The notes beneath the pieces were generated by a model. That model saw nothing but the letters and a program-made list of their open reading frames with translations, was not told where the DNA came from and ran no database searches. Positions 4,969-27,972 of a stretch of DNA of 64,000 nt are shown piece after piece. Source of the DNA: Naegleria gruberi (taxonomy: Eukaryota). The stretch lies in NCBI GenBank assembly GCA_000004985.1, contig GG738872.1, one strand, 5' to 3'. Position 1 is the stretch's first letter; the number at the start of each line of letters is the position of its first letter. The position numbers were made by a program, and so were the translations under genes.

Positions 4969-6270
4969 TTATTTGTTTGCCTTGTTCATGGCCGATTCCA
5001 TTGCCTCTTGTTTCATTAATTTCCAATTTTCTTCATGTTTGGAAATAATCTCTTGTTGTTCTTTGATTTTCTTTTTAAGCAATTCTATTTCTTTGTCTTT
5101 TTTGCTAACAGAGTTAGTAAGGCGAGTAACCTTATCGGCATTGAGACTGTAGCTTAATGAGAGCAACTTTTTAGAAATATCAGTATGCATAGCTGTACTG
5201 CTGGCCATAGGATGAAGAGGTGAAGACATTCCACTCATACTACCAAATTGTGAATTAGCCATATCAGTCTCATCTGCAGATTGAGTTTTCTGCATGACCT
5301 GGTTCAGCTTTTGTTGAGTGGAAAGAAGAGTCTTATTGAAGAGCTTTCTCAATTGTTCATTTTCGGTTGCCTCTTCCAAATTTTTCTGGTATTGAATCCA
5401 AGGATATATAAACAAATTATACAATTCTGAATAGAGTGTAACTCCTGGGGTTGTTGGAGTTGATTGTGAAGGAGTATCACCTCCATTATGACCTATTGGA
5501 GATAGGCATTGTCCATTAAAATCATTCATAGTCAATAAATTATGATTATTAGTTGATTGAGTTGCTGAAAGTCCAATCATAGATTCACTAAGATCATATT
5601 GTTTTGGCATAATCATCTCTCTGTCTCCGTATTGTTCCATCACAATTGGTCCATTATTAATTCTCGATCTATTATTCAGTATTGTCGATCCATTCATATT
5701 ATTTGTAATTGTGGTTGCTTCATCCAAATTTCTTTGGAATCTATATTCAGATTTATAATGAGAAATCAAATGATTAATTGAGTCAAGAGCACTCTTGTCA
5801 CAAGTTAAGTTTTTTGATCTTTCCAATATTGACATTCCCTTTCTGTTCAATTGTGCTGCTTTTCCATGATCTCCAATTGAATGTAAATATTCAGATTGTC
5901 TATTTAAACGGTTAGATTTTTGAATAGGATGATTTAAAACTTGTTGAGTAATAACAATTTGTTTGCTATTATTATTACTAGAAGATTTATGTGTTGCCTT
6001 GTGAATGCCATTATTTGTGCTCAGAAGATTTGTATTTTGTTTTTCCAAAGTTAATGAGTTTGTACTGGCAACTTGTGTTGTTACATGATTGTCATTGGTT
6101 TTAATGGGAGGAGTGATGATGGTAGTTATGGATACATTGTTATTGGTGGGAGTTGAAAGAGGAGTGAGATGTTTTCTAGGTGTGGTTACGATATTACTAT
6201 TACTAGAGGTTGATGTTGTAGATGATGGAGAAGAGGCCGGAGAAGATAAATTTGATATTGTGGAGGCCAT
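4969..6270 (-). CDS. Hypothetical S/T/N-rich protein with a C-terminal coiled coil (433 aa). Possibly a transcription-factor-like protein
   Basis: Long ORF with an A-rich context before the ATG at 6268-6270, homopolymeric S/T/N tracts, C-terminal heptad-like K/E-rich segment. No family recognised. Confidence 0.5.
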   Translation of the reverse strand: MASTISNLSSPASSPSSTTSTSSNSNIVTTPRKHLTPLSTPTNNNVSITTIITPPIKTNDNHVTTQVASTNSLTLEKQNTNLLSTNNGIHKATHKSSSNNNSKQIVITQQVLNHPIQKSNRLNRQSEYLHSIGDHGKAAQLNRKGMSILERSKNLTCDKSALDSINHLISHYKSEYRFQRNLDEATTITNNMNGSTILNNRSRINNGPIVMEQYGDREMIMPKQYDLSESMIGLSATQSTNNHNLLTMNDFNGQCLSPIGHNGGDTPSQSTPTTPGVTLYSELYNLFIYPWIQYQKNLEEATENEQLRKLFNKTLLSTQQKLNQVMQKTQSADETDMANSQFGSMSGMSSPLHPMASSTAMHTDISKKLLSLSYSLNADKVTRLTNSVSKKDKEIELLKKKIKEQQEIISKHEENWKLMKQEAMESAMNKANK

Positions 6271-21321: not shown

Positions 21322-21568
21322 GATGATGAAGGGTAATGAATTTGTTTTTTTTGATTTTGAAAAATCAGTGATATTAATAGCACTAACTGAGAAGAACTCC
21401 AGGTTACCAGTTTGTTATTATCGCTCTGTAGTTCAATTAATTTATTGTAACAGGTTAGTATCTTCATTGTTCCACCAATAGGATCAGGACGTGCTAATGT
21501 GGAATTAACACATATTTAAAATAATATTAATAATATATTAGTTTGATTTGATTCAACGAAGAGAAAAA

Positions 21569-22057
21569 ATGTTCAAATCATCATCGTTGAAATGTTGTGT
21601 TTTATCCTCATCACACTTTGCAAAAAGACAACAACTTTTTAAAATAATTCAAAATCGAGTAGTATCACACGAAAACTTTTCTACGTCATGTCTGAATAGA
21701 AATGAAAAGGATGAACAACCACCATCATCATACTCGGAACAAATAACAAAATTAGTATTGGAAAAGTATCAAGAAATGATTAAAAGTGGAGATCCAAGAG
21801 CATTTGACCAAATAAAAGAAGAATTAGATAAGGAGGAAAACGAACAAAGTATTCAAACAATAATTAGAAATGTTAGAATGGGATTAATTTCAGAACCATC
21901 GGAGGAAATTAAACAAAAACAAGAGGAAAAATTGGATGAGAGACGTAAAAAACAATTTGAATTGAGAAAACAACAAGAAATTGAAAGGAGAAAGAATGCA
22001 GGAAAGGAAGAGCCAAAGAGAGGAGGAATTGAATATCGAGTTGTAGAAAGAAGTTAA
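21569..22057 (+). CDS. Hypothetical protein (162 aa) with an N-terminal presequence-like region and a K/E-rich coiled-coil C-terminus. Possibly mitochondrial
   Basis: First true ATG at 21569 in an A-rich context (the track start 21548 is TTG). MFKSSSLKCCVLSSSHFAKRQQLFK looks like an amphipathic targeting peptide. No family recognised. Confidence 0.4.
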   Translation: MFKSSSLKCCVLSSSHFAKRQQLFKIIQNRVVSHENFSTSCLNRNEKDEQPPSSYSEQITKLVLEKYQEMIKSGDPRAFDQIKEELDKEENEQSIQTIIRNVRMGLISEPSEEIKQKQEEKLDERRKKQFELRKQQEIERRKNAGKEEPKRGGIEYRVVERS

Positions 22058-22062
22058 TAAAT

Positions 22063-23289
22063 TTATTTTGGTGAAGGACTTCGTCTTGAGGGAAGAAGAG
22101 GATTGAGTTGGAAGTTATTACCTCCTTTTGGGGAACATGGACGAGCTCTCTTGAGTGGTGTGTACAATAGCTTTTGAGCTTCATTTCTATTGAATAAAAA
22201 TCCACTAGCTCCACTTGGTCTTTGATTTGATGATGCTGAGGAATTATTATTACTAGTTGAGTTGCCTAGAATACCATTTCTTTGGATATTGTTATGAGAT
22301 TGAGTAAGGGTAAATAATGGTGATCCTAAACATACATTTAGAGAAATGAAATCAATTTGAATACTTACTTGAAGGAACAGAGTTTGATTTACCCAACAAA
22401 TTGCTACCTATTGTTGTTCTATTTTCCTTACTATTGTTACTGTTGTTGGTAGGTGATTTGGACAATCTGAAATCCAAAACATTGGAAGGTCTTCCTGCAG
22501 AACTCTCCTTTCTGAACAATAAAGATACAGGTGGATTTTCTTGATTCTCTTTGAATGAAGGAGAAACTGAAGGATCTAAATCAACTGGAGAAGGTGCTCT
22601 TCCTGATGAATCCCGAGTTTGATCATATCTTCGTTTAAGGGAATTGTACAATTCTTGGAGTTTGTTTCTTTCTCTGACCTTTTCAGAGTACTTTTCTTGA
22701 ATGGTTTGAAATTCCCTCTTGGTAATTTCTTGTTGTTCCTCACTGTGTTGTAGCTTTTCGGCAATTGATTGATACTTTTGCTTGGTTTCATTCAGTTTAT
22801 CAGAGTAAGATCTTGATCATCAATTATATGTTGAAAGAGTTGAAATCATTTATACCTACTTTTCCATTTGTGATGCTTTGGATATTGTTTCCTTGTGAAG
22901 ATACTCTTGGTATTTAATTTCAACTTGTCGTTGGTTGTCCCAGAATTTTAAGGCTGATTGTGCAGCCTCAAGAACAACTTCAGGTGGGAATCCACAAAGG
23001 CACATCTAGATGAATTTAAATTATTCCTCAAATGATGAAGATGATTTAACTTACAGTTTTTTCTTCAATATTAGCCTTACTCAACTCCACTTGCCGAATG
23101 TCCCTTGAAGAAAGGGGTTTCTCGCAAGCAGGACAACTCATATCCTTTGAGAAATGTTTGATAGCATCATCCTTACCTTCATTAATCAAGGTTAAATCTT
23201 CATCAATGAAACAACTTACAAAATACATGATTACAACTGGTGATAAAGTAAACCTCCTCAACAGATTTCCAGCAAGCATTGCATTTCAT
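22063..23289 (-). CDS. HEI10/CCNB1IP1-like RING E3 ligase (meiotic crossover / cyclin B1-interacting protein family), five exons, with an apparent 1-nt frame break inside the RING exon
   Basis: Exon 1 MKCNACWKSVEEVYFITSCNHVFC...SCPACE, cf. human CCNB1IP1 LLCNYRKCRIKLSGYAWVTACSHIFC...ICPACN. Exon 2 MCLCGFPPEVVLEAAQSALKFWDNQRQVEIKYQEYLHKETISKASQMEK, cf. human MVLAGLRPEIVLDISSRALAFWTYQVHQERLYQEYNFSKAEGHLKQMEK. Exon 4 contains LYNSLKRRYDQ, cf. human LYDSLRLRN. Introns at 23006..23054, 22812..22859 and 22326..22368, all GT..AG and 43-49 nt. The RING exon needs a one-nucleotide correction near 23203..23215. Confidence 0.75.
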
Positions 23290-23687
23290 TTTTTTTGGCG
23301 GTTTTTAAAAATTGTTCAAACCATAACAAAGCGTTTTATTTGCTCACATTAATTACCTGGCCCTACTATTAACACCATTAATGTTTCGTAGCACTGGTCA
23401 GTGTTATCCAATAGAAGCAAACATACGAGAGAGTACAAGCTCTCTTCCAACTAAATACAAGCTTCTGGGAAAGTCTCTGGATACTACAGATTTACATCTG
23501 TGCAGGTAGAAAGTACCGACTCGAATGAGTGCACGCCAAGAGGAAACTCGGACTTTGGTCTCACTGGTTTCTATCAATTCTATATAGGCATGAAAACACA
23601 ATGTCATTGGCATTGAACCAAATAGAGCTTACTGACCTGTGTTACTTTTTCTATTATTTGGCCAAAGTGACAAAATTAAATGGAATG

Positions 23688-26600
23688 TTATTGAGATTCC
23701 ATTTTTGTGCAATTTCCATGTAATACACTTTCCCAGAACTTTCTTACTAGGTTCTTGTCCTCTGTTCTCTCACTGAAATAGTAACATCTGTACTTGAGAT
23801 TTTTCATATCTTGTGATTGACAAAGCTCTTCGTCCAGTTTCATATCTTCCTCATCACCAAATATACAACATAGTTTTTTTGACATGGCATTTGATTTCAA
23901 CCTGATAGTGGCTGGTTGATTGAACTCTCTTCTATCCATTCTTTCAACAAAGAGTACAATCTTGTCTGTATAAGTTAGAATTTCCTGAATGAATCTAGAA
24001 TAAACTCCATTCTCTCCAGTGATGAGTATTCTGCCAGATAACTCCAAACAAAGAACTACTACGTCACCCTTTTGTATAGGATAGCATGATGTCTTCTTTT
24101 CATTATTTACGTTTTGTTTCAGATTAATATCTTCTGGCTTTTTATCCTCCTCTTCCGAATCATTCTTCACAAGGACAATTGCATTTTCATCAAATTCATC
24201 ATCACTGCTCTCAAGGTTTTGAGTAAATGAGGCTGAAGTGTTGCTTATTGTACTAGTCTCTGTATCTGATTCACTGTCATCATTATTTTGAATTTCAAAT
24301 ATTCCCTTATCATTGGGTAATGGCAATAGTTGAGGAGCCTCTACTGATGTTCTGAAAATTTTCAATTTTTTAGCCCTTTCTTTCCTTCTACAATTGTAAA
24401 ATGTAAAAAACTAGCCAATAAGAATCGATTACTTACGATAAAGATTGAAGGGTTCCATAGCTCTGGGACTTTTTCATAGATGATTGATTGCTATCTGTGC
24501 TTCTTCTTCTTTTTGTTGGAGCATTCATTCCTGTCCAAAGATCTGTGATGGTCCTTCTGACTACAACATAATTGTTAACGGATTGAATTTTCTTTTCTGG
24601 TATAATATCTTTTCCATTCATGAATTGCTCTCTATTTCTCACACAAATTAGAATATTGTTGGTTTGTTTTTGATTCTTTTTGGCCTTCGACTCTAGATAT
24701 GACTTGGCAGAATAAAAGCTATTGACTGCAACTGATACTGTTTCTCTTTCGTTATCCAAACCAAAGAACCAAATATTTCTTTTTTGTTCATACTCCTGAA
24801 GATCCTTAATTTCAATCTTGACTTCAGAATTGGAAAAAAGTTTCATTACAGTATTAATAGAGGTCGACGAATCTTGTTTTGGATGTTGGACTGTAACCCG
24901 TTCTAAAGCCACATCAATGACCTCTCTAAAGAATTGAGAAAGTATAAGTTCTGTGGAAGCTGTTTGAGATTTTGTCATTCCTGATTTGTGTTGAACTATG
25001 AATGGTTTAGAGTTTGAGTAGAGGCTTGAAATTTCTATTTCAGCATCTTCTTTTCGTTTGATGGCATCATAAATATCGGTGCATTTATCAAGACCATGCA
25101 AAACAAAGAGTGTTGGAAAACCTTCCAAAAGCTTTAGCTTGTCCTTCAATCCTTTTTCCATCTTGTTACCAACAGTGGATAAAACTATTACCCCATCTAC
25201 ATTTGAGTGAGGTTCTATCGTTTGTTTTAATAACTCTTCATCTTCTTCATTCTTGAAAAAGTCTTCTGTTTCGGTACTAGTTTCTTTGAATTTATACATG
25301 CTGAAAGATCGGCAGCATACATCATCTCTTCTGAATAAAACATATCTATTTTCTTCATCCACTCGCTCAATATTATATCCTATCAATTTCACACAAGATT
25401 GAAACCATTGAATAAGATATCCTTTTTGACTTTCTGTGTGAGCAATAGTAGTTGAACCAATGAGGAATTTCATAAGATATTCCATCAAATTTCCTCCCAA
25501 GTACTGATCATTTTGTTCTATTTCAGAAATATCCAGCAACAGTAAAATGTTCAATCTTTCGTCCAACTTTCTTAAAAAAAGGAAGAAGAATAAAATACTT
25601 TCACGGAGTGTGTTTGTTGATTCGTCTTCATACATTTGAAGACCATGAAATTGGAGGGCATTTCTCGAACTTGCCTCACTAACCTTTTTCTTGTGGCCCT
25701 TCCTAATGGATATTTCTCTAATTTCATCATAATAAATATTGTTCGAAAGTTTGATAGCATCAATTGATGTGTTTTCGCATGGTCTATAATTTGGGAAAAA
25801 TCTGTAAGTAATTGGTTCCAATGTAAATGTAGAATAATCACTAAAAAGAAAGAGTGACTTGTTTACATTAGCTCCGAGAATAACATCCTTATTGTGAAAA
25901 TGCTCAATAAAATAGGCCTTACAGTGAAATGGTGATTGTTTCCTTTTTGTTGTCTTGTCTTGTTTTTCCTTATTTTTATCAGAAGATTCCTCATTCTCGT
26001 CAAACAGTTCCACTGAAGTTTGTGTTTTGGGTAAATTATTTCCATTGTATGAATTTCTTGCATTTCCAAAATATTTAGAGAATATAGTCTCTTGTTTGTC
26101 ATTTGTAGGAGGTGTAGTATTTGTAGAAGAGTTCATTTCTGAATCATACAACCCAACAACTAGAATAAAGTAGTCTGAATATGTATGAAAAGGAAATCGT
26201 CCCAAACAAAATGTGTTTGGTTCTATTTTGTACTTGATAATATTATTCCAATCAGGGAGACCTTCATTTGTTAGGTCAACCGTGTGACATGAGGAAAAGC
26301 AAAAGTGTCTATGACTTTTAAATTTCGAGTTTTGTGATTGTTTTTCAGTAGGTTGATTATAGAAATAGTAGGCAGGAGGGTAATCACATGGAGCACTAGT
26401 TTTGCTATTCAAAATAAGCGGGCTATTTTCCTTTTTCCAGTGAATGTGAAGACCTTTAACACCCCAATAAATTGGTTTATCGGTTTTGTTTTCCATACAG
26501 AATATTCCCCATTCTCTTTCCTTCTCAAAACTATTCAAAACAGAGGATGCTACCTTCTCTGGACCATTCTTGTTTTTGTTTTCGTTCCTTCCAGCTGAAA

Positions 26601-26820
26601 ACATGGAAGAGAAGAACCTGCTACTACTGCCTGTTCTTGTTGATGATGATGCAGTATTGTTGTCAACACCTTCTACTATTTCCTCCTCCTTCTCATCAAA
26701 TACAAAATTCGCATCAACATCCTCGCTCGATTTACTTTTCATGTGTTTTGTTTGTCTCTCGGAAGTAATATCAGACGTGTTGATCAACAAGTTTAAATTA
26801 TTGTTGTCTGAATTATCCAT
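23688..26820 (-). CDS. Large hypothetical protein (~1,030 aa), two exons (24437..26820, 23688..24387). Family not assigned
   Basis: Track ORFs 24433..26820 and 23688..24365 are joined in frame by a 49-nt GT..AG intron (24388..24436): ...LQSLS|RKERAKKLKIFRTSVEAPQ. True ATG at 26818-26820. N/S-rich low complexity. No confident homolog recognised. Confidence 0.5.
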
Positions 26821-27216: not shown

Positions 27217-27972
27217 ATGAGTAGAATTGTTAAGGCTATCGGAGATGCTGTTTTATCGCCATCGATAAGCAAACCTCTTTATTCAACTCATTATCCAACA
27301 TCATTTCTTGAAAAAACCTTCATCACTGCTGGATCAACATTAATTTCAGCATTTTATCCATTGAGAACAGACATGGTTGGAGCTTTGGGAGAAACAACAG
27401 GAACACCAGCATTGGAATATGTTAGAAGCCAAATGGTTTTAACAAAGGAAGGAAATGAAATTCTTAAAGAAAGACCAAATATTGATGAAAGAGTAAATCC
27501 AAAATTTTGGGAATATATTAGCACACTTCCACCAGATACTTTCGGAGGAGCCTATTACAAGTTCATGTCAACTAATGGATTTGTTGCTAGTGAAAGACCT
27601 CCAGTTAGATTTATTGATGACGAAGAATTGGCCTTTATTATGTTCCGATACAGACAATGTCACGACTATTTCCATGTGTTGGCTGATTTACCACCATCTG
27701 TTTATGCTGAAATTATTGTGAAATGGATTGAATTTTTCCAAACTAGATTACCGATGACTTTATTGTCAGGTGCTGCTGCACCTCTCACTCAACTAACTTT
27801 TGAACAACAAAAAGAGTTAGCTACTGTATTTTTGCCATGGGCTTTGGATGCTGGAAGAAATTGCAAATTCTTGATGGGAGTTTATTTTGAAAAGTATCAT
27901 TTGGAAAAACCTGTAGAACAAGTTAGAAAGGAACTCAATTTTAGAATTGCTCCTAGAAGTAACCTTGTGTAA
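27217..27972 (+). CDS. COQ4: Ubiquinone biosynthesis protein COQ4
   Basis: Conserved COQ4 zinc-ligand motif HDxxH-x(n)-E (RYRQCHDYFHVLADLPPSVYAEIIVKWIE) and a C-terminal region collinear with human COQ4 ([21 protein letters not shown]...LIPWAVQNGRRA...YYERRWEQ). Confidence 0.85.
   Translation: MSRIVKAIGDAVLSPSISKPLYSTHYPTSFLEKTFITAGSTLISAFYPLRTDMVGALGETTGTPALEYVRSQMVLTKEGNEILKERPNIDERVNPKFWEYISTLPPDTFGGAYYKFMSTNGFVASERPPVRFIDDEELAFIMFRYRQCHDYFHVLADLPPSVYAEIIVKWIEFFQTRLPMTLLSGAAAPLTQLTFEQQKELATVFLPWALDAGRNCKFLMGVYFEKYHLEKPVEQVRKELNFRIAPRSNLV

What the first reader, a model, noticed from the sequence alone, without database searches (positions are those of the whole stretch)
22063..23289. HEI10/CCNB1IP1-family RING E3 (meiotic crossover designation factor) homolog, multi-exon, with a frame break inside the RING
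Three separate exons match human CCNB1IP1/HEI10 residue-for-residue in the RING, the post-RING helix (MCLCGFPPEVVLEAAQSALKFW...QMEK) and the coiled-coil (LYNSLKRRYDQ). HEI10/Zip3-class ligases mark class I crossovers. Finding one here implies ZMM-type crossover control in this lineage. The first exon, however, switches frame after the C-x-H-x2-C element. Either one base is wrong in a TTT run (about 23203..23215) or the gene is inactivated. Its stop codon (22063) lies 5 bp from the stop of the convergent gene ending at 22057, so the two 3' UTRs must overlap.
Basis: partly seen in the sequence, partly recalled or inferred. Interest (0 to 1): 0.65.

Follow-up and report, generated by a model that had tools for sequence, protein, structure and literature searches.

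The report
Intact, unannotated HEI10 gene in Naegleria
The window comes from the amoeba Naegleria gruberi and carries a complete five-exon gene for HEI10, a ligase that marks meiotic crossovers in plants, fungi and animals. The supposed frame break is a 43-base intron, not an error or a dead gene.

Summary
On the minus strand, 23289..22063 encodes a HEI10/CCNB1IP1 orthologue. Spliced at four GT..AG introns of 43, 49, 48 and 43 nt, it gives an uninterrupted 347-aa protein with an N-terminal RING, a linker, a long coiled coil and a Ser-rich tail.

- **Family.** It matches human CCNB1IP1 (PDB 9ges) at E=3e-24 across the RING, linker and coiled coil. Every named hit in the wider searches is CCNB1IP1/HEI10; none is RNF212 or Zip3.
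- **Frame break.** It is intron 1 (23219..23177, phase 1, inside the Cys24 codon). The same intron sits at the same codon position in N. lovaniensis (47 nt), N. fowleri (51 nt) and Willaertia magna (33 nt), and the first three exons are 70/122/146 nt in all four species. Purifying selection is strong (N. lovaniensis versus N. fowleri core: dN 0.02, dS 0.82).
- **Annotation.** The window is N. gruberi. No N. gruberi protein for this gene turned up in the protein collection. The three related database models all start at internal methionines and lose part or all of the RING.
- **3' end.** The 5-bp gap between the two convergent stop codons is confirmed.
- **Function.** A role in crossover designation is inferred only. 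Meiosis has never been observed in Naegleria.

This is a solid but unsurprising new member of a known family.

The parts
23220..23289 (-). Exon 1 (70 nt). It starts at the ATG and encodes MKCNACWKSVEEVYFITSCNHVF plus the first base of the Cys24 codon. This is the first half of the RING (C3, C6, C19, H21).
   Evidence: The 70-nt exon is conserved in N. lovaniensis, N. fowleri and Willaertia. The N-terminus MKCNACW is identical to residue 1 onward of the fern HEI10 homologue P0042.
23177..23219 (-). Intron 1, 43 nt, GTAAGT...AG, phase 1.
   Evidence: Orthologous introns of 47, 51 and 33 nt lie at the identical codon position. If the intron is retained, an in-frame stop follows in all four species.
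23055..23176 (-). Exon 2 (122 nt). It encodes the second half of the RING (C24, D27, C38, C41) and the start of the linker: CKDDAIKHFSKDMSCPACEKPLSSRDIRQVELSKANIEEKT.
23006..23054 (-). Intron 2, 49 nt, GTAAGT...AG, phase 0.
   Evidence: The position is conserved in the three relatives.
22860..23005 (-). Exon 3 (146 nt). It encodes the linker (MCLCG), the helix-capping proline, and the start of the coiled coil and head-to-head bundle (PPEVVLEAAQSALKFWDNQ...QMEK).
   Evidence: The residues that match human L77, P82, L86, L93, F95 and W96 are conserved.
22812..22859 (-). Intron 3, 48 nt, GTAGGT...AG, phase 2.
   Evidence: The position is conserved.
22369..22811 (-). Exon 4 (443 nt). It encodes the rest of the coiled coil (to about aa 178, including EKYSEKVRERNKLQELYNSLKRRY) and the first part of the Ser/Asn-rich tail.
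   Evidence: An AlphaFold model of the N. lovaniensis orthologue shows one continuous helix over the equivalent of aa 72-178, with block-mean pLDDT of 90-98 over most of its length.
22326..22368 (-). Intron 4, 43 nt, GTAAGT...AG, phase 1.
22063..22325 (-). Exon 5 (263 nt including the TAA stop at 22065..22063). It encodes the end of the tail, with the conserved motifs SGFLFNRNEAxKLLYTPLKRxRPxSP and LPSRRSPSPK.
   Evidence: A C-terminal [KR]RPx[ST]P motif recurs across the family.
21569..22057 (+). Convergent neighbour gene (162 aa, XP_002676399 / D2VHV1, function unknown). Its stop lies 5 bp from the HEI10 stop.
23290..23687 (-). Upstream intergenic region, the presumed promoter and 5' UTR. 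It is bounded by the end of the upstream minus-strand ORF at 23688. An A-run lies immediately before the ATG.
   Evidence: Only the A-run and a TTTT stretch are conserved among the four species.

Best explanation
Window 23289..22063 (minus strand) is the intact HEI10/CCNB1IP1 orthologue of Naegleria gruberi. It has not been annotated so far.

**Gene and protein.** It has five exons and four short GT..AG introns and encodes 347 aa. The protein has an N-terminal RING (C3, C6, C19, H21, C24, D27, C38, C41). A short linker follows, then a proline-capped helix of about 105 residues that forms the coiled coil, and then a disordered Ser/Asn-rich tail that ends in conserved F-containing and RPxSP motifs.

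**Frame break.** The apparent frame break is intron 1.

**Mechanism (inferred from the family, not shown here).** The coiled coils would assemble the protein into a rod-like tetramer that clusters four RINGs. The tail would drive higher-order accumulation at recombination sites. The RINGs would recruit an E2 to build ubiquitin (possibly SUMO) chains. Those chains would stabilise MutS-gamma (MSH4-MSH5) intermediates at a subset of sites, so that they mature into class I crossovers. On this reading the gene belongs to a cryptic meiotic programme in Naegleria.
For: **Gene model.** Splicing at four GT..AG introns gives an open 1044-nt CDS.

**Intron 1 is real.**
- Exon sizes of 70/122/146 nt and the phase-1 split of the Cys codon are identical in N. 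lovaniensis, N. fowleri and Willaertia.
- The intron lengths (43/47/51/33 nt) and sequences differ.
- Intron retention gives an in-frame stop in all four species.

**Selection.** For N. lovaniensis versus N. fowleri, the core has dN 0.021 and dS 0.82. Exon 1 alone has dN 0 and dS 0.95.

**Family.**
- Pfam zf-RING_5 scores 32 bits against a cut-off of 27.9.
- Human CCNB1IP1 (9ges) matches at E=3.1e-24 over aa 10-175. The next PDB hit, BRCA1, matches only the RING at E=1.7e-4.
- Identity to human HEI10 is 36%.
- Identity to a fern homologue is 34% over aa 1-186, starting at residue 1 of both proteins.
- A full HMMER scan gives 396 relatives. Among the ten best hits outside Naegleria and Willaertia that were looked up, all six clusters that carry a name are CCNB1IP1 or 'E3 ubiquitin-protein ligase'.
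- A profile search returns CCNB1IP1/HEI10 homologues of land plants and streptophyte algae, and no RNF212 or Zip3.

**Structure-critical residues.** Six of the nine residues named in the human crystal structure paper are conserved: L77, P82, L86, L93, F95 and W96.

**Coiled coil.** An AlphaFold model of the N. lovaniensis orthologue gives one helix over the equivalent of aa 72-178, with block-mean pLDDT of 90-98 over most of it.

**Orthology by synteny.** The upstream gene, the convergent neighbour and the PARP gene are shared with N. lovaniensis and N. fowleri.

**Pathway partners.** Published inventories report MSH4, MSH5 and MLH1 in Naegleria. MER3 is found in one inventory and not in the other.
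Against: - No transcript evidence was available, so the four splice junctions rest on comparative genomics only.
- Meiosis and synaptonemal complexes have never been observed in Naegleria. One inventory reports HOP1, PCH2, ZIP4 and MLH3 as 'not found', so the pathway context is incomplete.
- Three of the nine human interface residues differ: Y72 is E, V76 is C and Y98 is N.
- The sixth zinc-ligand position is Asp rather than Cys or His. This C-x2-D form is shared by about half of the family members aligned.
- HEI10 also has reported cell-cycle roles in mammals, so presence of the gene does not prove a meiotic function.
Confidence: 0.85

Rival explanations
1. One reading: either the assembly has a one-base error in the T run around 23203..23215, or the gene is a frameshifted pseudogene.
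For: Read as contiguous DNA, the first ORF stops after ...HVFCKLFH* and the RING continues in another frame.
Against: - A canonical 43-nt GTAAGT..AG intron restores the frame and rebuilds the Cys24 codon.
- The same interruption occurs at the same nucleotide in three independently sequenced genomes, with intron lengths of 47, 51 and 33 nt. The 33- and 51-nt introns do not shift the frame at all, yet they still carry in-frame stops.
- The exons on both sides are under strong purifying selection.
- The T run lies inside the intron.
Confidence: 0.02
2. A genuine HEI10-family ligase that in Naegleria does not act in meiosis. It might instead act in cell-cycle control through cyclin B, or in mitotic recombination, DNA repair or ploidy control.
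For: - HEI10 was first described as a cyclin B1-interacting protein with cell-cycle roles in mammals (PMC3405992).
- Naegleria has no observed meiosis, and several synapsis genes were reported as not found.
- The tail carries conserved S/T-P sites, including TPLK, which are compatible with CDK regulation (this is inference).
Against: - Where HEI10 has been tested genetically (Arabidopsis, Sordaria, mouse), the studies found in the literature search report a role in meiotic crossover formation.
- Its pathway partners MSH4-MSH5 are retained in Naegleria.
- This reading does not exclude a meiotic role as well.
Confidence: 0.3
3. A member of the sister Zip3/RNF212/ZHP-3 group (SUMO-ligase type) rather than HEI10 proper.
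For: The two groups share the same RING, coiled-coil and tail layout, and both hit Pfam zf-RING_5 (PMC3405992).
Against: - Similarity between the two groups is only borderline (HMM E of about 2e-4 in PMC3405992). This protein matches human HEI10 at 3e-24 through the linker and coiled coil.
- Every named hit in two wide searches is CCNB1IP1/HEI10; none is RNF212 or Zip3.
Confidence: 0.03

Closest known systems
Human CCNB1IP1/HEI10 (PDB 9ges; structure described in PMC13174674)
   Same: - The layout is the same: an N-terminal RING, a linker, a Pro-capped helix and a coiled coil of about 100 residues.
- Identity is 36% over 162 aa, E=3e-24.
- The interface residues L77, P82, L86, L93, F95 and W96 are conserved.
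- The tail is disordered and carries Phe-containing motifs.
   Different: - Zinc-ligand position 6 is Asp here (CKDD). In human it is His (CDQH).
- Y72, V76 and Y98 are not conserved.
- The tail sequence is unrelated apart from its composition.
- Tetramer formation and K63-chain activity were not tested here.
Plant HEI10 (Arabidopsis and rice HEI10; here represented by fern, bryophyte and streptophyte-alga CCNB1IP1 homologues P0042, P0173, P0176, P0182)
   Same: - The N-terminus MKCNACW is the same, and so is the C-x2-D form of the RING (CTDDA versus CKDDA).
- The two proteins are collinear from residue 1 through the coiled coil (34% identity over 186 aa).
- A terminal [KR]RPx[ST] motif is shared.
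   Different: - Plant HEI10 is shown genetically to be needed for class I crossovers (PMC3405992). No function has been tested in Naegleria.
[quoted passage not shown] Whether Naegleria also has only one is unknown.
Zip3 / RNF212 / ZHP-3 group, including the Tetrahymena Zip3-like protein (PMC5349789)
   Same: The overall layout of RING, coiled coil and variable tail is shared, and both groups act as pro-crossover factors.
   Different: These are a separate sequence group. No member appeared among the hits. The budding-yeast Zip3 RING was associated with SUMO E3 ligase activity (PMC3405992).

Membership tests
HEI10/CCNB1IP1 | An N-terminal RING finger with a complete set of zinc-ligand positions | tested here: met
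   - Pfam PF14634 zf-RING_5 scores 32.0 bits against a cut-off of 27.9 over aa 2-43.
- The ligand positions are C3, C6, C19, H21, C24, D27, C38 and C41.
- In a 20-member family alignment, position 27 is Cys or Asp, so Asp is a family-typical variant.
- This holds only once intron 1 is spliced out.
HEI10/CCNB1IP1 | Significant similarity to an experimentally characterised HEI10 that extends beyond the RING into the linker and coiled coil | tested here: met
   phmmer against the PDB gives 9ges_A CCNB1IP1 at E=3.1e-24 and 89 bits over aa 10-175. The next hit, BRCA1, covers the RING region only, at 24.5 bits. BLASTP gives 36% identity.
HEI10/CCNB1IP1 | Best database relatives are HEI10/CCNB1IP1, not RNF212/Zip3 (a reciprocal-style check) | tested here: met
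   Named hits:
- Balamuthia 'cyclin B1 interacting protein 1'.
- Streblomastix and Paratrimastix 'CCNB1IP1'.
- Selaginella and Physcomitrium 'CCNB1IP1 homolog', and the same product name, printed 'CCNP1IP1', for Marchantia.

No RNF212 or Zip3 appeared. A true reciprocal search into the N. gruberi proteome was not possible.
HEI10/CCNB1IP1 | Conserved linker and head-to-head four-helix-bundle residues of the tetrameric core (human Y72, V76, L77, P82, L86, L93, F95, W96, Y98) | tested here: met
   Six of the nine are identical (L77, P82, L86, L93, F95, W96). The three that differ are Y72 to E, V76 to C and Y98 to N. This comes from the alignment read against the residues named in PMC13174674. The residue number is the PDB chain index minus 2.
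HEI10/CCNB1IP1 | A long coiled-coil helix following the RING | tested here: met
   The AlphaFold model of the N. lovaniensis orthologue (82% identical in the core) has a single helix at P0002 residues 37-143, equal to full-length aa 72-178. Its block-mean pLDDT is 90-98 over most of its length. The N. gruberi protein itself could not be submitted.
HEI10/CCNB1IP1 | A variable, disordered Ser-rich C-terminal tail needed for focus formation | tested here: inconclusive
   The tail (aa ~179-347) is Ser/Asn-rich and has pLDDT below 50 in the orthologue model. It carries motifs conserved in Heterolobosea, and a [KR]RPx[ST]P motif recurs across the family. Its role in assembly cannot be tested computationally.
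HEI10/CCNB1IP1 | E3 ubiquitin-ligase activity and tetramer or higher-order assembly | not testable with these tools
   This needs recombinant protein, SEC-MALS and ubiquitylation assays, as in PMC13174674.
ZMM pro-crossover factors (functional class) | Required for class I crossovers, and localises to recombination sites in meiotic prophase | not testable with these tools
   No meiotic stage is known for Naegleria. Only the presence of partners is reported: MSH4, MSH5, MLH1 and, in one study, MER3.
Zip3/RNF212 | Closest sequence relatives are Zip3, RNF212 or ZHP-3 | tested here: not met
   No such protein appeared among the named hits.
Pseudogene | A reading-frame disruption that splicing does not remove, together with relaxed selection | tested here: not met
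   The frame is restored by a conserved intron. The dN/dS ratio is about 0.03 in the core, and exon 1 has dN=0 between N. lovaniensis and N. fowleri.

The most novel reading that the evidence does not exclude
Naegleria and other Heterolobosea run a HEI10-based, plant-like crossover-designation system with a single RING ligase. They do this without an observed sexual cycle, and with most synaptonemal-complex and axis genes undetected. That would place HEI10-type crossover control in the last common ancestor of eukaryotes. It would also give the long-suspected cryptic sex of Naegleria a specific marker gene. The marker has been overlooked because every public gene model loses the RING or, in N. 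gruberi, the whole gene.
Probability: 0.45. Interest if true: 0.55.

Novelty: new member of a known kind. Interest (0 to 1): 0.3.

Why it matters
**Meiotic toolkit.** The gene adds the RING-ligase component to the meiotic crossover toolkit of Naegleria. The two published Naegleria inventories I checked list MSH4, MSH5, MLH1 and MER3 but have no entry for HEI10 or Zip3. No paper in the searchable library links HEI10 or CCNB1IP1 with Naegleria.

**Evolution.** Homologues also occur in Acrasis (a heterolobosean), in metamonads and in the amoebozoan Balamuthia. This supports an ancient origin of HEI10.

**A marker for cryptic sex.** The gene gives a concrete marker, by expression or tagging, for finding a hidden sexual stage. 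That includes the pathogen N. fowleri.

**Annotation.** Gene predictors miss the 33-51-nt first intron. The N. lovaniensis and Willaertia models start at Met36, the N. fowleri model starts at Met65, and N. gruberi has no model. Domain-based surveys therefore cannot see the RING.

Tried and rejected
- **Full HMMER scan with the spliced protein.** I used a profile of the N. lovaniensis and Willaertia database models instead. For the same reason, AlphaFold was run on the N. lovaniensis model with a two-sequence alignment. It gave mean pLDDT 58.6, with only the helix confident. No fold search was run, because a single long helix is uninformative.
- **N. gruberi gene calls.** I tried to list the gene calls around the locus with the look-up of encoding contigs for P0005 and P0006. 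Neither is on record.
- **Exact look-ups.** Three plausible N. gruberi models (347, 312 and 283 aa) and single-exon ORFs are not in the collection.
- **Literature.** The N. gruberi genome paper (Cell 2010) is not held.
- **dN/dS.** Synonymous sites are saturated for N. gruberi against every other species (dS undefined). Only the N. lovaniensis - N. fowleri pair is informative.
- **Alternative acceptor.** An AG at 23199..23198 would give a 22-nt intron. It keeps the frame but replaces Cys24 and inserts seven residues. I rejected it because the orthologues all read C-K-D-D and the intron would be implausibly short.
- **Promoter motif.** An alignment of the upstream regions shows only the A-run before the ATG and a TTTT stretch as conserved.

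Full report
**Source of the window.** Four long ORFs from the window were looked up by exact sequence. Three are identical to Naegleria gruberi proteins: XP_002676484 (a PARP protein, D2VHV0), XP_002676398 (D2VHU9) and XP_002676487 (D2VHV6). All lie on a 413,107-bp scaffold. The window is 29-36% G+C throughout.

**Gene model.** On the minus strand an ATG lies at 23289 and a TAA at 22065..22063. Read as contiguous DNA, the region breaks into short ORFs in different frames. Removing four GT..AG introns gives an open 1044-nt coding sequence and a 347-aa protein.

| Feature | Coordinates (minus strand) | Length |
|---|---|---|
| Exon 1 | 23289..23220 | 70 nt |
| Intron 1 | 23219..23177 | 43 nt |
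| Exon 2 | 23176..23055 | 122 nt |
| Intron 2 | 23054..23006 | 49 nt |
| Exon 3 | 23005..22860 | 146 nt |
| Intron 3 | 22859..22812 | 48 nt |
| Exon 4 | 22811..22369 | 443 nt |
| Intron 4 | 22368..22326 | 43 nt |
| Exon 5 | 22325..22063 | 263 nt |

Three of the donors are GTAAGT and one is GTAGGT.

**The 'frame break inside the RING'.** Exon 1 ends ...CAT GTA TTT T. It is followed by GTAAGTTGTTTCATTGATGAAGATTTAACCTTGATTAATGAAG, and then GT AAG GAT GAT.... Splicing joins T|GT into Cys24 and reads ...SCNHVFCKDDAIKHFSKDMSCPACEKPL.

The decisive test was comparative. I fetched the orthologous loci of N. lovaniensis (L001), Willaertia magna (L002) and N. fowleri (L003). I read upstream of their annotated starts and mapped full-length models onto the DNA with a splice-aware search.

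- All three carry the same 70-nt first exon, which begins MKCN.
- All three have the same phase-1 split of the Cys codon, and the same 122-nt and 146-nt second and third exons.
- Intron 1 is 47, 33 and 51 nt long in those loci, and its sequence is unrelated apart from the splice sites.
- If intron 1 is retained, an in-frame stop follows in all four species. That includes the two whose intron length is a multiple of three.

One shared, position-conserved interruption of differing length cannot be a sequencing error in one assembly. Selection also rules out decay. Between N. lovaniensis and N. fowleri, the structured core (codons 1-176) has dN 0.021 and dS 0.82. Exon 1 alone has dN 0 and dS 0.95. 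Comparisons that include N. gruberi are saturated at synonymous sites.

**What the protein is.**
- Pfam places aa 2-43 in zf-RING_5, at 32 bits against a cut-off of 27.9.
- Against all PDB sequences, the best hit is human CCNB1IP1/HEI10 (9ges), at E=3.1e-24 over aa 10-175. That covers the RING, the linker and the coiled coil.
- The next PDB hits are generic RINGs such as BRCA1, at E=1.7e-4, and they align over the RING region only.
- Pairwise identity to the human core is 36% over 162 aa.

A full HMMER scan of 1.84 billion representative proteins used a profile of the two related database models. It found 396 relatives at E<=1e-3 and 124 at E<=1e-10. Most are 250-330 aa long, with the match starting around residue 40. 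I looked up ten of the best hits outside Naegleria and Willaertia. All six that carry a name are called CCNB1IP1, 'cyclin B1 interacting protein 1' or 'E3 ubiquitin-protein ligase':
- Acrasis kona, another heterolobosean.
- The amoebozoan Balamuthia.
- The metamonads Streblomastix and Paratrimastix.
- An unplaced JGI/IMG metagenome protein.

A second named search used a 20-sequence family profile. It returned CCNB1IP1/HEI10 homologues of ferns, bryophytes, Selaginella and streptophyte algae at E down to 5e-81. It returned no RNF212 or Zip3 protein. The fern protein aligns from residue 1 of both sequences (MKCNACW...). This independently supports the start codon and exon 1.

**Structural detail.** The recent HEI10 core structure paper (PMC13174674) names the residues that build the tetramer. 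P82 caps the helix and packs on W96. L86 and L93 form the core of the four-helix bundle. Y72, V76 and L77 form the interlocked linker. F95 and Y98 form the contact between the RING and the coil.

In the alignment (PDB chain index minus 2), N. gruberi keeps L77, P82, L86, L93, F95 and W96. It differs at Y72 (E), V76 (C) and Y98 (N).

In a 20-member family alignment the invariant or near-invariant positions include C3, C6, C19, H21, C24, C38, C41, G69, P72, F85 and Q89. The sixth zinc-ligand position is Cys or Asp across the family, so the Naegleria C-K-D-D form is normal for the family.

AlphaFold2 on the N. lovaniensis model predicts one uninterrupted helix that corresponds to full-length aa 72-178. 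Its block-mean pLDDT is 90-98 over most of its length, and the tail is disordered. The tail carries motifs conserved among the four heteroloboseans: SGFLFNRNEAxKLLYTPxKRxRPxSP and LPSRRSPSPK. A terminal [KR]RPx[ST]P motif recurs across the family.

**Annotation status.** Neither wide search returned any N. gruberi protein, although the collection does hold the N. gruberi proteome. Exact look-ups of three plausible N. gruberi models also failed. The flanking genes D2VHV1 (21569..22054, +) and D2VHV3 (COQ4, 27217..27969, +) are annotated. I infer that the gene is missing from the reference annotation.

The related models are all damaged at the 5' end. Those of N. lovaniensis and Willaertia begin at the internal Met36 (MSCPACE...), and that of N. 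fowleri begins at Met65 (MCLCG...). All three carry no precomputed Pfam domain, whereas most of the full-length plant proteins carry PF14634. The N. fowleri model also contains a 187-aa duplication that brackets a 10-N gap at L003 5485..5494. This is most likely an assembly artefact. Reading the first copy through gives a 347-aa protein collinear with N. gruberi.

**Surroundings.** Orthology is backed by synteny. The upstream minus-strand gene (24436..26820) matches the gene upstream of HEI10 in N. lovaniensis and N. fowleri at 68-74% identity. The convergent 162-aa gene and the PARP gene follow in the same order.

The convergent gene ends ...IEYRVVERS* in both N. gruberi and N. lovaniensis, so its stop at 22057 is genuine. 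The two stops are 5 bp apart in N. gruberi, against 92 bp in N. lovaniensis and 88 bp in N. fowleri. Any 3' UTR must therefore run into the other gene's coding exon. This is an inference, because no transcript data were available.

**How it most likely works (inferred).** I take the mechanism by analogy with human and Arabidopsis HEI10 (PMC13174674, PMC3405992).
1. Parallel coiled-coil dimers join head to head into a rod-like tetramer that clusters four RINGs.
2. The tail drives accumulation into foci.
3. The clustered RINGs build ubiquitin chains that stabilise a subset of MSH4-MSH5-bound intermediates, which become class I crossovers.

Published Naegleria inventories list SPO11, DMC1, HOP2, MND1, MSH4, MSH5 and MLH1. 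MER3 is found in one study and not in the other. HOP1, PCH2, ZIP4 and MLH3 were reported as not found. Neither inventory has an entry for HEI10 or Zip3. No paper in the library links HEI10 or CCNB1IP1 with Naegleria except through a reference list.

A non-meiotic role, in the cell cycle or in repair, cannot be excluded and may coexist with a meiotic one.

**Verdict.** The family assignment is confirmed. The frameshift or pseudogene reading is rejected in favour of a conserved 43-nt intron. The functional claim remains an inference. This is a new, unannotated member of a well-known and widely distributed family, and its interest is modest.

Noticed in passing
L003 4264..6348 (N. fowleri GCA_008403515.1, VFQX01000029.1): The N. 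fowleri HEI10 model (P0001, 470 aa) contains an exact 187-aa duplication. Exon 4 and part of exon 5 occur twice around a 10-N gap at 5485..5494. Its '674-nt intron' actually contains the true end of the gene. This is probably an assembly or scaffolding artefact. The corrected protein is 347 aa.
   Followed up: yes
L001 4001, L002 4001, L003 4001 (annotated starts): All three public heterolobosean HEI10 models start at internal methionines (Met36 or Met65), because the 33-51-nt first intron was missed. As a result they carry no Pfam RING annotation.
   Followed up: yes
window 21322..21568, compared with L001 5797..6344 and L003 6967..7395: N. lovaniensis and N. fowleri have a small DnaJ-domain gene between the convergent 160-aa gene and the PARP gene. 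N. gruberi has only 247 bp there. tblastn with pieces of the N. lovaniensis DnaJ gene finds nothing anywhere in the 64-kb window.
   Followed up: partly
window 21569..22057 (+): The convergent neighbour (D2VHV1, 162 aa) is conserved in Naegleria. It has only a sub-threshold Pfam hit (DUF4125, 22.7 bits against a cut-off of 25) and a charged, Lys/Glu-rich C-terminal half. Its function is unknown.
   Followed up: partly
window 23688..26820 (-): Two adjacent minus-strand ORFs (24433..26820 and 23688..24365) can be joined by a short GTAAGT intron with its donor at 24436 (candidate lengths 49-85 nt). The 795-aa ORF alone is not in the protein collection and has no Pfam domain. It is conserved at 68-74% identity in N. 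lovaniensis and N. fowleri.
   Followed up: partly
L002 3863..5085 (Willaertia magna): The Willaertia orthologue has six introns (33-49 nt), against four in the three Naegleria species. The two extra introns lie in the region that encodes the tail, which indicates intron gain or loss within Heterolobosea.
   Followed up: no
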